64,000 nucleotides of DNA, taken from sequence record PP892525.1. One strand, given 5' to 3'. The notes under the pieces are model-generated. The model did no database searches. It was not told where the DNA came from and saw only the letters and a list, made by a program, of their open reading frames with translations. Below, piece after piece: positions 30,244-43,728 of this stretch (its first letter is position 1; every line of letters begins with the position of its first letter). This DNA comes from Escherichia phage vB_EcoS_I14. The translations under genes and the position numbers were made by a program.

Positions 30244-30307
30244 TAGATAAATAGGGGCAGAAGCCCCTACAATCTACTAATTCTCTAACTAATCAAGGAT
30301 ATTTTTT

Positions 30308-30523
30308 ATGTTCTCTAAGAAACCACGTTCTGTTACTGAAATCGTTGCTTCCTTTACCACTATCACTGATGAGCTTCAAGCTCGTATTGAGGCTGATCAA
30401 AAAATTGCTGCGGATATTCAGAAACAGCAGGAAGAACTCGCTTTAAAGTTGGCTGAAACCAACAAGAGTGAAAAATCTGCCCAAACTATTATGGAAAATA
30501 TCTTTAAACTGCTGGGCAAGTGA
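30308..30523 (+). CDS. hypothetical protein (71 aa)
   Basis: ORF flanked by two GNRA-type hairpins. Confidence 0.45.
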   Translation: MFSKKPRSVTEIVASFTTITDELQARIEADQKIAADIQKQQEELALKLAETNKSEKSAQTIMENIFKLLGK

Positions 30524-30564
30524 TTTAAATCAGGGGGCGAAAGCCCCTCTTATTTGGAGAAACT

Positions 30565-30801
30565 ATGCGTAATTTTGTAGCAAAGAATGATTTTAACCGT
30601 GCTAGCACTCATAAGTCCGCTAGAGATTATACACGACTTTCTAGTCATGAGGTAATGGATACCTGTTATGAAGAGCTGGAAGGTAGCTGGAATGAATGGC
30701 CCGGCCTCTCTATGGAAGAGAACTGGGATGTCAGTGAGGATATGCTTCCTGGTTTTAAAGACCCCAAGAAGTGGGAGTCTATTAAAGAGACAGCTCTTTA
30801 A
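30565..30801 (+). CDS. hypothetical protein (78 aa)
   Basis: ORF. Confidence 0.45.
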   Translation: MRNFVAKNDFNRASTHKSARDYTRLSSHEVMDTCYEELEGSWNEWPGLSMEENWDVSEDMLPGFKDPKKWESIKETAL

Positions 30802-34401: not shown

Positions 34402-34477
34402 ATATTCATAAATTAGAGAGTAATTTCTATCTAATTTATAAATAGTGGGGTGTGGAAATCACTTATGTAGTAACACT

Positions 34478-34549
34478 GCCGTCCTAGTATAATTGGTATT
34501 ATCAAGCCGTAACTGGTGGAAGATGTAGGTTCGAATCCTACGGTCGGTA
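34478..34549 (+). tRNA. tRNA-like element (degenerate; anticodon arm does not fold)
   Basis: canonical T arm GTAGG-TTCGAAT-CCTAC and acceptor GCCGTCC/GGTCGGT with mismatches. Confidence 0.35.
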
Positions 34550-35052
34550 AGAACTGGATAACTGATGCTTTTAACGTAAAAGCTTCCGAGGTTAGTTGCG
34601 CACTGCCTAAACCACGCGGTAGTTGGTTCCAGACTAACCAACCAGTCTGCTGAATAGTTTTATTACGATTTAACTATGTCCAGGCTAAAGAAGAACTTTA
34701 GAAGGTATTTCTAGGATAGTGAAGTTCTTTCTCCATATCGGAGTAGTTTTTCAAGCTATCCACAAAGTGGGAAATGCTGACATGAGAGATGTCACTAATG
34801 GTGCACAATAGCACAGGTAATTCGCGATAACTCCTGTTGAGTAGCAGCAAAAGGCGGGAAGTCATGACCCCAAGCCTAACCGAGTCCTCAATATACCGCA
34901 GGACATAACCACTAAGTCACCCTGACTTAAACTGGAAAATAATAGACGTTACTGTATTTTGTCTTGAAATACTTAATGAGTGAGACTTATGATTCTCCCG
35001 GTATCGTCTGTATTTTTAAGAGTTTTTACGAGAGTTCTTAAAAATACTTAAA

Positions 35053-36840: not shown

Positions 36841-36918
36841 GGTTCTCAAGCTCATATGGTATGAGCACCCGGCTCATAACCGGAAGGTACGTAGGTTCGA
36901 ATCCTCGGGGAGCCACCA
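36841..36918 (+). tRNA. tRNA with anticodon CAT (Met, fMet or Ile-lysidine)
   Basis: anticodon loop CTCATAA; acceptor GGTTCTC/GGGAGCC; T stem imperfect. Confidence 0.6.
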
Positions 36919-39822: not shown

Positions 39823-39924
39823 AATTCTGTGTAGAGTTAAGTAAACCGGTAGCCAACCAGCTATCATTGCTGACATCGAATTCAGCCACAGATACCATTT
39901 TCATTAATAACTGAGGAAACAAGC

Positions 39925-40570: not shown

Positions 40571-40692
40571 CAAAATTTCAGTGCAGAACACGGAGCTAGC
40601 AATTCGGAAGTGCTGACTCATGATAAGCTGCCTATGTACTTGCGAAGCGGTCGTGTCCAAGACTCGGACTCTTGCACTGAAAACAATCAAAC

Positions 40693-40813
40693 ATTCTAGC
40701 GTGGTTGATGGGGAAACCAGCTTGGCTAGGGCAGAAGCTCGTTCGATTCGAGTGAAAGAATGGTTCTCGTAAGTCCGCACAAGTGATAGCAGGTTCGAGT
40801 CCTGTCTAGAATG
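40693..40813 (+). ncRNA. candidate tRNA-like RNA of about 121 nt with an enlarged central region
   Basis: 7 bp acceptor-like helix ATTCTAG/CTAGAAT, D-arm-like TGGTT...AACCA, canonical T arm GCAGG-TTCGAGT-CCTGT, but about 68 nt where an anticodon arm should be. Confidence 0.35.
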
Positions 40814-40962
40814 ACACTATAAAGTTTACTTATTATGTAGGTTCCGATAGATCGGCGGGTCTATTCTGGCATTTAAGAGAAGTCTCGCAAACTTTTTTGT
40901 CAGCCGTGGGGTTGGTAGCCTCCAGGTGGCCTACACAATAAGTAAATTTATTAAAAATTCAT

Positions 40963-42120: not shown

Positions 42121-42310
42121 CCTCATCATAGTTCACTAAGGTATTAGCTCGACCTAGGACTGGCTGCCAAAAAGCACGATCCCTACGATTCGGGAGAAGT
42201 TCTAGATTAGTCCACTAGATTCAGCGGCAACTGAATAGTGTATTGGGTTTGCGAGATGACGCGGTTCCTTCCGCTCGAAGCGAAGGTGCTGTAGTTACGC
42301 CGAGCTAATA
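42121..42310 (+). ncRNA. candidate structured small RNA of about 190 nt
   Basis: terminal clamp ATTAGCTCG (42143-42151) pairing with CGAGCTAAT (42301-42309); internal hairpins GCGGTTCCTTCCGC and CTTCGC/GCGAAG; no ORF. Confidence 0.4.
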
Positions 42311-42332
42311 GCCTTAGTAAACTAAAGAATTT

Positions 42333-43190: not shown

Positions 43191-43285
43191 GGTAGGTCAA
43201 TCCAACGGCTGGCGCTGGACTCCGACTTGAAATCGGTTGATCGTAGTGATACGGTGTAAGGGTTCGATCCCCTTACCTACCTCCA
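43191..43285 (+). tRNA. tRNA-Ser (anticodon TGA), long variable arm
   Basis: perfect acceptor GGTAGGT/ACCTACC, anticodon loop CTTGAAA, T arm AAGGG-TTCGATC-CCCTT, CCA. Confidence 0.8.
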
Positions 43286-43651
43286 AATCTTGAAGTATGC
43301 CGGAATCGGTAGACGGGGCTGCCTAAAAGGTTTATAGGGAACATCCACTCCCTGCAACATACCTCATAAAGCGGCTGAGATAAATGGTCTATCTCGTGAA
43401 GGTTCAAGTCCTTCTGCTTCTTGATACATCTATGGCTCAAAGTGTAACGGTGCTATTTGATGCTCTTGGTAAGACTTCCCCGACATGCGTTCGGGAGTAA
43501 GCTGCTAAGGCTAGGGTAGAAGAGTTTCTGAGAGCCGCCACAATTGAAAATTCGTACTCGTCTTGAGCTGCGTGCAATAGGAGATAACTTGATTAGTATT
43601 CTAGAACATGCTAATTGAGGAAGGTTTCGCTAACCCTGCGAGTTTTCAATT

Positions 43652-43728
43652 GTGGCTATATCATAATTGGTTAATGATCCTGATTGTGAATCAGGCCTAT
43701 GTGGATTCGAATTCCACTAGCCACCCCA
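43652..43728 (+). tRNA. tRNA-His (anticodon GTG)
   Basis: perfect acceptor GTGGCTA/TAGCCAC, anticodon stem CCTGA/TCAGG with loop TTGTGAA, T arm GTGGA-TTCGAAT-TCCAC, CCA. Confidence 0.85.

What the first reader, a model, noticed from the sequence alone, without database searches (positions are those of the whole stretch)
43288..43660. tRNA-like RNAs with encoded CCA that do not fold as tRNAs, plus a 13 bp clamp overlapping tRNA-His
Between tRNA-Ser(TGA) and tRNA-His there are about 360 nt with no ORF. A canonical T arm (GAAGG-TTCAAGT-CCTTC at 43398-43414) has no matching 5' acceptor. An element at about 43432-43540 ends in GAGAGCC-G-CCA like a tRNA 3' end but has only a 5 bp terminal helix and no TTC T loop. 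A perfect 13 bp helix pairs CCACAATTGAAAA (43538-43550) with TTTTCAATTGTGG (43643-43655); its 3' strand overlaps the first four bases of the tRNA-His acceptor stem. That clamp would compete with tRNA-His folding or processing. These look like a family of tRNA-derived or tRNA-mimicking RNAs rather than decayed tRNAs, because the long helices are intact.
Basis: seen in the sequence. Interest (0 to 1): 0.8.

Follow-up and report, generated by a model that had tools for sequence, protein, structure and literature searches.

The report
Known phage T5 stable RNAs rediscovered
The gap between tRNA-Ser and tRNA-His in this T5-like phage holds three small stable RNAs already annotated in phage T5 (RNA1, RNAI, RNAIII), and the "clamp" is part of a conserved 20-bp RNA stem that most likely serves as a cutting site to release them and tRNA-His.

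Summary
The window is a T5-like phage (Tequintavirus). The flagged 360 nt correspond one-to-one to three misc_RNA features of the T5 GenBank record: RNA1 ("tRNA-like stable RNA", 43289-43433), RNAI (43434-43540, ends GCCGCCA) and RNAIII (43545-43650). All three are annotated "unknown function".

The sequence observations are real, with one error. The T arm does have a 5' partner. RNA1 folds as a class-II tRNA-like cloverleaf with a covarying 6-bp acceptor stem, and a ~48-nt extended arm replaces the anticodon loop.

The 13-bp clamp is the outer part of a continuous 20-bp helix (43537-43556 / 43637-43656). Five mutually unalignable cassettes occupy this slot in related phages, and all keep the stem: 97% of cells paired, 9 of 20 pairs with double changes.

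The RNAIII ends annotated in T5 lie symmetrically about the CAAUUG palindrome and leave 2-nt 3' overhangs. This is the geometry of an RNase III cut, but that is an inference. The cut would free RNAI's CCA end and the tRNA-His 5' end, which the stem otherwise sequesters (ΔΔG about 9.5 kcal/mol).

The elements are already known, their trans function is still unknown, and the processing model is a testable addition.

The parts
43191..43285 (+). tRNA-Ser(UGA), the upstream neighbour (context)
   Evidence: Sub-threshold Rfam tRNA-Sec hit of 38.3 bits. Annotated tRNA-Ser TCA in HildyBeyeler and T5_ev212. Missed by ARAGORN.
43289..43433 (+). RNA1, the 'tRNA-like stable RNA' of T5. The tRNA-like core is 43291-43422 and there is no encoded CCA.
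   Evidence: 85% identical to the T5 rna1 feature. The Rfam tRNA model aligns 43291-43422 end to end at 25.2 bits with a 45-nt insert. The cloverleaf is 98.4% paired, with 11 of 36 pairs showing double changes.
43292..43297 (+). RNA1 acceptor-like stem, 5' strand (GAAGUA). It pairs with 43415-43420 (UGCUUC).
   Evidence: helix 1 is 99.2% paired and 4 of 6 pairs have compensatory changes.
43300..43316 (+). RNA1 D arm (CCG / GAAUCGGUAGA / CGG). It resembles the D arm of the phage's tRNA-Leu(UAG).
43317..43376 (+). RNA1 anticodon-type stem (43317-22 / 43371-76) carrying an extended arm with two further helices. The apical loop ACAUCCAC (43341-48) is conserved (one A-to-G variant, in T5).
   Evidence: helices 3-5: 6 pairs with double changes. 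Alignment.
43377..43395 (+). RNA1 long variable arm (GAGAUA / AAUGGUC / UAUCUC)
   Evidence: helix 6: 100% paired, with an A-U to U-A swap in 5 sequences.
43398..43414 (+).
43434..43540 (+). RNAI, 107 nt. It has a 5-bp terminal helix, discriminator G43537 and encoded CCA (43538-40). The body is rod-like and not tRNA-like.
   Evidence: 92% identical to the T5 rnaI feature. Two body types (107 and 100 nt) share near-invariant ends and a covarying apical hairpin.
43541..43544 (+). CAAU spacer between the RNAI CCA end and the RNAIII 5' end. It would be the 3' trailer of RNAI after the proposed cut.
   Evidence: Gap between the rnaI and rnaIII features in T5 and DT571/2, mapped onto the window.
43545..43650 (+). 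RNAI II-slot occupant RNAIII, 106 nt: a hairpin-type stable RNA with a 12-bp terminal stem and an internal three-way junction
   Evidence: 99% identical to the T5 rnaIII feature. Fold z-score is -2.9. Mean identity among 34 loci is 98.7%.
43537..43556 (+). 5' strand of the 20-bp stem. It covers RNAI G73+CCA, the spacer and the first 12 nt of RNAIII.
43637..43656 (+). 3' strand of the 20-bp stem. It covers the last 14 nt of RNAIII, U43651 (position -1 of tRNA-His) and G1-C5 of tRNA-His.
43651..43728 (+). tRNA-His(GUG). G1 is 43652. Position -1 is U43651, not G. C73 and CCA are encoded.
   Evidence: ARAGORN and Rfam. The T5 and DT571/2 records annotate a 78-nt tRNA-His that starts at this U.

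Best explanation
The region holds three separate, co-transcribed small RNA genes of the T5 tRNA operon: RNA1, RNAI and RNAIII. All three are already annotated in phage T5.

- RNA1 is a class-II (Leu-like) tRNA derivative. It keeps the acceptor stem, D arm, variable arm and T arm, but a ~48-nt helical extension replaces the anticodon loop.
- RNAI is a rod-shaped RNA whose only tRNA feature is a 5-bp acceptor-like helix followed by G-CCA.
- RNAIII is a hairpin-type RNA.

The stem is made of RNAIII's own 12-bp terminal helix plus 8 more pairs between RNAI's 3' end (G-CCA-CAAU) and the sequence AUU-GUGGC that runs into tRNA-His.

Proposed mechanism (inferred, not shown). In the primary transcript this stem forms first and sequesters both RNAI's CCA end and the 5' acceptor strand of tRNA-His. 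Host RNase III then makes a staggered cut centred on the CAAUUG palindrome, at 43544|43545 and 43650|43651. That cut releases RNAIII with a 2-nt 3' overhang. It leaves RNAI with a 4-nt trailer to be trimmed back to CCA. It also frees the tRNA-His 5' end so that the cloverleaf can fold. RNase P would make the 5' ends of the tRNA-like units.

What the RNAs do in trans after processing remains unknown.
For: Identity:
- The region is 99% identical to T5-like phages.
- The T5 record AY543070 annotates rna1, rnaI and rnaIII at the aligned positions. DT571/2 annotates rnaI and rnaIII.

Separate modules:
- Some related phages lack RNA1 or carry other slot cassettes, and the RNA1, RNAI and slot types reassort.

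RNA1 fold:
- 98.4% of cells are paired and 11 of 36 pairs have double changes. 0 of 500 shuffles reach the observed covariation, and slid controls are at most 50% paired.
- The Rfam tRNA model aligns the whole core.

The stem:
- It is continuous for 20 bp in the window.
- Five mutually unalignable slot cassettes (about 28 to 133 nt between the inferred cut positions) all close with a stem of about 20 bp (14+4 bp in the shortest).
- 97% of cells are paired and 9 of 20 pairs have double changes. 0 of 500 shuffles reach this, and slid controls are at most 45% paired.
- G.U pairs fit only the + strand RNA.

Cut geometry:
- With the ends annotated in T5, the RNAIII 5' nucleotide pairs 2 nt inside the 3' end. 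The two cuts are symmetric about the CAAUUG dyad.
- RNA2H shows the same 2-nt geometry inside a flank-extended helix. RNAIV sits in a 24-bp helix.
- From established knowledge, RNase III is the E. coli enzyme that cuts ~20-bp dsRNA leaving 2-nt 3' overhangs.

Sequestration:
- The precursor MFE with the full stem is -100.6 kcal/mol, against -91.1 kcal/mol when the tRNA-His acceptor stem is enforced. Stem pair probabilities are at least 0.99 over the first 14 pairs, falling to 0.76 at the innermost pair sampled, and tRNA-His acceptor pair probabilities are about 0.
Against: - No experimental cleavage or end-mapping data could be read here. The end coordinates come from GenBank features whose experimental basis I could not verify.
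- The annotated RNAIV ends give a 1-nt overhang, not 2 nt.
- The shortest cassette (S124 type) has only 14+4 bp, which is short for RNase III.
- The 12-bp terminal stem of RNAIII equals the length of a tRNA acceptor/T-stem stack. RNase P, or RNase P plus another nuclease, could therefore make the same ends.
- The outermost 5 pairs (GCCAC/GUGGC) are invariant. Each strand is already constrained by RNAI or by tRNA-His, so these pairs carry no covariation evidence.
- The nearest-neighbour energies ignore tRNA tertiary structure.
Confidence: 0.6

Rival explanations
1. The stem is only RNAIII's terminal helix, with a fortuitous extension forced by the neighbours' own sequences (RNAI ...GCCA and tRNA-His GUGGC...). 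The ends would be made by RNase P, at RNAI +1 and at tRNA-His -1 or +1, together with RNase E/G and exonucleases. RNase III would not be involved.
For: - The outer 5 pairs never vary, and each strand is independently constrained.
- RNAIII's 12-bp stem equals the length of an acceptor/T-stem stack.
- The annotated RNAIII 3' end abuts the annotated tRNA-His start, as a single RNase P cut would give.
Against: - The helix is held at about 20 bp, not 12 bp, across four unrelated long cassettes.
- The CAAUUG box between the constrained ends is conserved and covaries (CAAUUA/UAAUUG in the S124 type).
- The 5' cut at 43544|45 lies inside a perfect duplex, which is a poor context for RNase P or RNase E.
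- The symmetric 2-nt stagger also appears at RNA2H.
Confidence: 0.22
2. The clamp is a regulatory switch. It would throttle or time tRNA-His and RNAI maturation by holding their ends in an alternative pairing, rather than simply marking a cut site.
For: The stem is predicted to out-compete the tRNA-His acceptor stem by about 9.5 kcal/mol in the precursor. It is conserved upstream of tRNA-His in every related locus examined.
Against: No ligand, sensor or alternative conserved pairing was found. The annotated mature ends lie inside the stem, so the stem is destroyed by processing rather than toggled. This reading is compatible with the best explanation more than it rivals it.
Confidence: 0.08
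3. The feature works at the DNA level. The 14-18-bp inverted repeat would be a recombination or homing-endonuclease target that drives cassette exchange in the tRNA region, and the RNA helix would be a by-product.
For: Five different cassettes sit between identical flanks. The modules reassort. HNH homing endonucleases are encoded in the T5 tRNA region (PMC3326045).
Against: The inner 10 pairs differ between cassettes yet stay complementary within each one. They use G.U pairs that would be mismatches in DNA and A.C on the other strand. The helix length, rather than the sequence, is what is conserved.
Confidence: 0.06
4. The region is decayed tRNA pseudogenes, non-functional spacer, or a small protein-coding gene.
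For: Several GenBank records annotate 'hypothetical protein' CDSs over the region. ORFs of up to 55 aa exist.
Against: There is strong compensatory covariation in RNA1 and in the stem. RNAIII is 98.7% conserved, close to the 99.2% of tRNA-His. The ORFs are short, lie on both strands, and one runs into tRNA-His. The T5 record lists these elements as stable RNAs.
Confidence: 0.03

Closest known systems
Phage T5 stable RNAs RNA1, RNAI and RNAIII (misc_RNA features of GenBank AY543070; rnaI and rnaIII also in DT571/2, NC_047749)
   Same: Same locus, order and strand between tRNA-Ser(UGA) and tRNA-His. Identities are 85%, 92% and 99%, and the lengths match (145/144, 107 and 106 nt).
   Different: Nothing essential differs. 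The window lacks the small ORF T5.063 that T5 carries upstream of RNA1. This is an allelic copy of a known locus.
Phage T4 species 1 and species 2 RNAs (rnaC 139 nt, rnaD 119 nt)
   Same: Small stable RNAs of unknown function encoded at the end of a phage tRNA cluster. One has a canonical T arm plus long extra arms and no CCA, like RNA1. The other ends in an encoded CCA without a T arm, like RNAI.
   Different: There is no detectable sequence similarity. T4 rnaC does not align to the tRNA model as fully as RNA1 does. T4 has no counterpart of the 20-bp stem linking to a downstream tRNA in the stretch examined.
RNase III processing stems (stems flanking 16S/23S rRNA; phage T7 early-RNA sites such as R1.1), from established knowledge
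   Same: About 20 bp of dsRNA formed by sequences flanking a released RNA, with a staggered cut that leaves 2-nt 3' overhangs. The cut separates neighbouring products of a polycistronic transcript.
   Different: Here one strand of the stem is built from the functional ends of two other RNAs, RNAI's CCA and the first 5 nt of tRNA-His. Cleavage by RNase III has not been shown.
Bacterial tRNA-His 5' maturation (encoded G-1 retained by an unusual RNase P cut; G-1:C73 identity, reviewed in PMC9976931)
   Same: The acceptor stem GUGGCUA/UAGCCAC and C73 match E. coli tRNA-His (E. coli sequence from my own knowledge, not checked with a tool). The T5 records annotate a 78-nt tRNA-His that carries a -1 nucleotide.
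   Different: The -1 nucleotide is U, which cannot pair with C73. It lies exactly at the proposed RNase III cut.
tRNA-like domains in other non-coding RNAs (tmRNA, bacterial Y-RNA-like YrlA)
   Same: They reuse acceptor, T-arm and D-arm modules outside translation.
   Different: ARAGORN finds no tmRNA. No Rfam family other than tRNA matches at E up to 10. The topology also differs: the RNA1 ends are in the acceptor stem and the added helix is a closed anticodon-side arm.

Membership tests
Phage T5 stable RNAs RNA1/RNAI/RNAIII | Sequence homology and synteny with the annotated T5 features between tRNA-Ser(UGA) and tRNA-His | tested here: met
   Alignment to AY543070. BLAST of the T5 features onto the window gives 84.8%, 91.6% and 99.1% over full length. 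Feature table.
Phage T5 stable RNAs RNA1/RNAI/RNAIII | Accumulation as discrete stable RNA species in infected cells | not testable with these tools
   Only the GenBank note 'stable RNA with unknown functions' is available. The primary papers are not in the searchable library.
Canonical tRNA (Rfam RF00005 / ARAGORN) | Covariance-model score at or above the gathering threshold (29 bits), or an ARAGORN call | tested here: not met
   RNA1 scores 25.2 bits. RNAI and RNAIII have no hit at E up to 10. ARAGORN calls nothing in 43289-43650.
Canonical tRNA (Rfam RF00005 / ARAGORN) | Acceptor stem, D arm and T arm in cloverleaf order | tested here: met
   Met for RNA1 only: the acceptor stem has 6 of 7 pairs, with a U.U at 1-72. 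Not met for RNAI or RNAIII.
Canonical tRNA (Rfam RF00005 / ARAGORN) | 5-bp anticodon stem closed by a 7-nt loop with U33 and an anticodon | tested here: not met
   The RNA1 loop is replaced by a 45-48-nt structured insertion with two covarying helices. T5 has G at the position that would be U33.
Canonical tRNA (Rfam RF00005 / ARAGORN) | Discriminator followed by 3' CCA | tested here: inconclusive
   RNAI has G-CCA encoded. RNA1 has U followed by GAU, with no CCA. CCA could be added after transcription.
E. coli RNase III substrate | About two turns (~20 bp) of largely uninterrupted dsRNA | tested here: met
   20 contiguous pairs, 43537-56 / 43637-56. The length is kept in cassettes A-D and the helix covaries.
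E. coli RNase III substrate | Product termini staggered to give 2-nt 3' overhangs | tested here: met
   Using the ends annotated in AY543070, the RNAIII and RNA2H 5' nucleotides pair at -2 from the 3' end. RNAIV gives 1 nt. This depends on annotation that I could not verify.
E. coli RNase III substrate | Cleavage depends on RNase III in vivo or in vitro | not testable with these tools
   No such data were found in the literature searches.
T4 species 1/2 RNAs (rnaC/rnaD) | Sequence homology | tested here: not met
   blastn-short finds only chance 7-mers.
T4 species 1/2 RNAs (rnaC/rnaD) | Small non-tRNA stable RNAs inside a phage tRNA cluster, one with a T arm and one with an encoded CCA | tested here: met
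   for T4; for the window.
tmRNA | tRNA-Ala-like domain plus a tag reading frame | tested here: not met
   ARAGORN reports no tmRNA in the window. Rfam reports none either.

The most novel reading that the evidence does not exclude
The conserved 20-bp stem would be an RNase III site whose symmetric cut at the CAAUUG palindrome does three things at once.

1. It releases an exchangeable 'cargo' RNA (RNAIII or one of at least four alternative cassettes).
2. It unmasks RNAI's CCA end.
3. [quoted passage not shown]

The third step would supply the 5'-phosphorylated -1 nucleotide (here U, not G) that HisRS needs. RNase P would not be expected to leave this nucleotide, because U-1 cannot pair with C73. 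That would make this an RNase P-independent route to tRNA-His identity in a bacterial virus. The cargo RNAs and the tRNA-like RNA1 and RNAI might then act as decoys in the contest with host tRNA-targeting defence nucleases.
Probability: 0.18. Interest if true: 0.62.

Novelty: already known. Interest (0 to 1): 0.38.

Why it matters
T5's non-tRNA stable RNAs, like T4's species 1 and 2 RNAs, carry an annotation of 'unknown function' and are missing from Rfam. Many deposited T5-like genomes cover them with spurious 'hypothetical protein' calls.

Phage tRNA clusters are now known to counter tRNA-cleaving defence systems such as PARIS and retron Eco7 (PMC11464382, PMC10644984). The companion RNAs in these clusters therefore deserve another look.

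This analysis adds three things:
- covariation-backed structures for RNA1 and for the stem;
- the finding that the RNAIII position is a cassette slot closed by a stem of fixed length;
- a concrete, cheap-to-test processing model (RNase III at CAAUUG) that also bears on how a tRNA-His with U at -1 is matured.

It does not reveal a new kind of element.

Tried and rejected
- **Rfam.** Scanned at gathering thresholds and at permissive E-values on the window and on six related loci. Only the sub-threshold tRNA alignment of RNA1 came up. RNAI, RNAIII and the alternative cassettes match no family.
- **ARAGORN**. No tRNA or tmRNA is called in the region.
- **Host mimicry.** blastn of the 362 nt against 5,426 complete E. 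coli genomes found no match.
- **Homology to T4 rnaC/rnaD.** None found, and T4 rnaC barely resembles a tRNA to Rfam.
- **Spliced tRNA.** Reading RNA1 as a tRNA with an intron was rejected. The would-be anticodon loop is not conserved (T5 has G at the position that would be U33), and the insert forms covarying helices.
- **Intrinsic terminator.** A terminator-like hit at 43626-43642 was rejected. Its U-run is paired within the covarying stem, and tRNA-His lies immediately downstream.
- **RNAI structure.** The consensus fold is weak (-11.9 kcal/mol). P1 is invariant, and only the apical hairpin covaries, so I give no confident full model.
- **Literature.** Searches for the primary T5 RNA papers, T5 small-RNA sequencing or RNase III work on T5 found nothing readable.
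- **More homologues.** One metagenome scan and one viral-contig scan added 35 loci but no cassette types beyond A-E.

Full report
**Observation**

The T arm GAAGGTTCAAGTCCTTC lies at 43398-43414. An element ends in GAGAGCC-G-CCA at 43540, with a 5-bp terminal helix. CCACAATTGAAAA (43538-50) is exactly complementary to TTTTCAATTGTGG (43643-55), whose last four bases are the first four of tRNA-His.
- Only short ORFs (55 aa or less, on both strands) cross the region.
- The helix is longer than reported. It is 14 perfect pairs and 20 contiguous pairs once G.U is allowed (43537-56 / 43637-56).
- It is one of eight inverted repeats of this class within 200 nt in the 64-kb window.

**What the locus is**

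- The window is a T5-like phage (Tequintavirus). The region is about 99% identical to HildyBeyeler, IME178 and many Salmonella and Escherichia T5-like phages.
- The T5 reference record AY543070 annotates three misc_RNA features between tRNA-Ser(UGA) and tRNA-His:
  - rna1, "tRNA-like stable RNA with unknown functions", 144 nt;
  - rnaI, 107 nt;
  - rnaIII, 106 nt.
- DT571/2 carries the rnaI and rnaIII features too.
- Alignment and BLAST place them in the window as follows:
  - RNA1 at 43289-43433 (85% identity);
  - RNAI at 43434-43540 (92%);
  - RNAIII at 43545-43650 (99%);
  - a CAAU spacer at 43541-44.
- The finding is therefore a rediscovery of annotated but functionally unexplained RNAs.

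**RNA1**

- GAAGUA (43292-97) pairs with UGCUUC (43415-20) immediately 3' of the T arm.
- A Leu-type D arm follows, then a 6-bp anticodon-type stem. A ~48-nt extension with two more helices and an apical loop ACAUCCAC (conserved apart from one A-to-G variant in T5) takes the place of the anticodon loop. A long variable arm and the T arm complete the fold.
- Across 21 distinct homologues, 98.4% of cells pair. Eleven of 36 pairs show changes on both sides, including 4 of the 6 acceptor pairs. No shuffle reaches the observed covariation, and slid controls pair at 50% or less.
- In a restricted search, the Rfam tRNA model aligns 43291-43422 end to end. It scores only 25.2 bits, below the gathering score of 29, and needs a 45-nt insert in the anticodon loop. 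There is no CCA.
- RNA1 is thus tRNA-derived but is not a decoding tRNA.

**RNAI**

- Related phages carry two body types (107 and 100 nt). These share nearly invariant 5' (about 20 nt) and 3' (about 25 nt) ends and a covarying apical hairpin.
- The rest of the fold is not resolved. No Rfam family matches.

**RNAIII and the stem**

- In the window the stem combines RNAIII's 12-bp terminal helix with 8 more pairs. These 8 pairs join RNAI's G-CCA plus the spacer to the AUU-GUGGC that runs into tRNA-His.
- Forty-eight related loci give 22 distinct slot sequences. These fall into five cassette types that do not align with each other. Their lengths, measured between the cut positions inferred from the T5 annotation, are:
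  - A, which is RNAIII, 106 nt;
  - B, about 121 nt;
  - C, about 133 nt;
  - D, about 63 nt;
  - E, a hairpin of about 28 nt.
- All are closed by GCCACAAUUG.../...CAAUUGUGGC and a continuous stem of about 20 bp (14+4 bp in E).
- Aligned by position from the ends, 97% of cells pair and 9 of 20 pairs carry double changes. 0 of 500 shuffles match this, and slid controls pair at 45% or less.
- G.U pairs fit only the + strand RNA. This argues against a purely DNA-level inverted repeat.
- What is conserved is the stem and its length, not the cargo.

**Processing model (inference)**

- With the ends annotated in T5, the RNAIII 5' nucleotide (43545) pairs two nucleotides inside its 3' end (43650). 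The two implied cuts, CAAU|UG on each strand, are symmetric about the dyad of the CAAUUG palindrome.
- A symmetric staggered cut in ~20 bp of dsRNA that leaves 2-nt 3' overhangs is the signature of RNase III. This is established knowledge and was not tested here.
- Two other T5 stable RNAs show related geometry. RNA2H (window 42142-42313) has the same 2-nt stagger inside a helix extended by its flanks. RNAIV (40835-40937) sits in a 24-bp helix, but its annotated ends give a 1-nt overhang.
- In the unprocessed RNAI-RNAIII-tRNA-His transcript, the full stem is favoured over the tRNA-His acceptor stem by about 9.5 kcal/mol (-100.6 against -91.1 kcal/mol). Sampled stem pair probabilities are at least 0.99 over the first 14 pairs and 0.76 at the innermost pair.
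- After the proposed cut:
  - RNAI would keep a CAAU trailer to be trimmed back to CCA;
  - tRNA-His would be free to fold;
  - tRNA-His would begin at U43651, which is position -1.
- That position is U, not the usual encoded G, in every slot variant recovered. The T5 and DT571/2 records annotate a 78-nt tRNA-His that starts there.
- HisRS depends on the 5'-phosphate of the -1 nucleotide (PMC9976931). The coincidence is therefore worth testing, but it remains speculative.

**Evolutionary behaviour**

- The three units behave as independent modules. Some phages lack RNA1, others carry a different cassette, and the RNA1, RNAI and slot types reassort.
- Among 34 loci with cassette A, mean identity is 98.7% for RNAIII. 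That compares with 99.2% for tRNA-His, 91% for RNAI and 85% for RNA1.
- RNAIII is therefore either strongly constrained or recently spread.
- A viable T5 mutant, T5-123, carries the deletion Δ29191-32442. If the paper's coordinates follow AY543070, which is my inference, this deletion spans the locus (30284-30644). The region would then be dispensable on laboratory hosts (PMC11464382).

**Comparison with known systems**

- The closest analogues outside T5 are the T4 species 1 and 2 RNAs. These are also small stable RNAs in a tRNA cluster, one with a T arm and one with an encoded CCA.
- They show no sequence homology to the window's RNAs.
- The region has no similarity to E. coli genomes and contains no tmRNA.

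**Verdict**

- The features are real and conserved.
These are not decayed tRNAs, and the clamp is conserved and competes with tRNA-His folding in the precursor.
- It is partly wrong. The T arm does have an acceptor partner, and the three RNAs are not one family.
- The elements themselves are already known.
- The trans function remains open. The RNase III reading of the stem and the cassette-slot pattern are new, testable inferences of moderate interest.

Noticed in passing
window 43191-43285: ARAGORN misses tRNA-Ser(UGA), and so does the Rfam tRNA model at gathering threshold. It appears only as a sub-threshold tRNA-Sec hit of 38.3 bits. HildyBeyeler and T5_ev212 annotate it as tRNA-Ser TCA.
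   Followed up: partly
window 36841-36915 and 34478-34549: Rfam tRNA hits of 40.3 and 35.5 bits that ARAGORN does not call. The first lines up with T5's tRNA-Ile2(CAU). The second lies inside the region homologous to T5 'RNAX'.
   Followed up: no
window 43651: tRNA-His has U rather than the usual encoded G at position -1, opposite C73. This U is invariant in all related loci and is included in the 78-nt tRNA-His annotated in T5 and DT571/2.
   Followed up: partly
window 42142-42313 (RNA2H), 40835-40937 (RNAIV), 40692-40816 (RNA2), 39825-39897 (RNA3), 34415-35052 (RNAX): The five other T5 'stable RNAs of unknown function' are also present in the window. RNA2H and RNAIV are likewise enclosed in long helices (17-24 bp) formed with their flanking sequences. 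RNA2 and RNA3 fold with tRNA-like acceptor and T-arm ends.
   Followed up: partly
L006 743-928, L007 761-922, L013 696-902, L009 919-1050 and other records: Many deposited T5-like genomes annotate 'hypothetical protein' CDSs across RNAI, RNAIII or tRNA-His. These are probably spurious gene calls over structured RNA genes.
   Followed up: no
L012 (Salmonella phage PYC03), between RNA1 and RNAI: An extra insert of about 115 nt, with its own hairpins, sits between RNA1 and RNAI. It may be another small-RNA cassette.
   Followed up: no
L011 (Klebsiella phage vB_Kpn_K7_rec14) ~780-1250: A clear RNA1 homologue with compensatory acceptor-stem changes occurs in a Klebsiella phage. A divergent structured RNA and a terminator follow it, with no RNAI-type CCA end or tRNA-His nearby. 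RNA1 is therefore the most widely distributed of the three RNAs.
   Followed up: partly
window 43289-43650 compared with related loci: The RNA1 types (a/b/c), RNAI types (A/B) and slot cassettes (A-E) occur in many combinations. This indicates recombination at the module boundaries within the tRNA region.
   Followed up: partly
cassettes A and C (window 43618-43636; L006 slot): Cassettes that BLAST cannot align still share a small hairpin with a UUCGCUA-type loop just 5' of the closing stem's 3' strand. They may be very diverged homologues rather than unrelated inserts.
   Followed up: no
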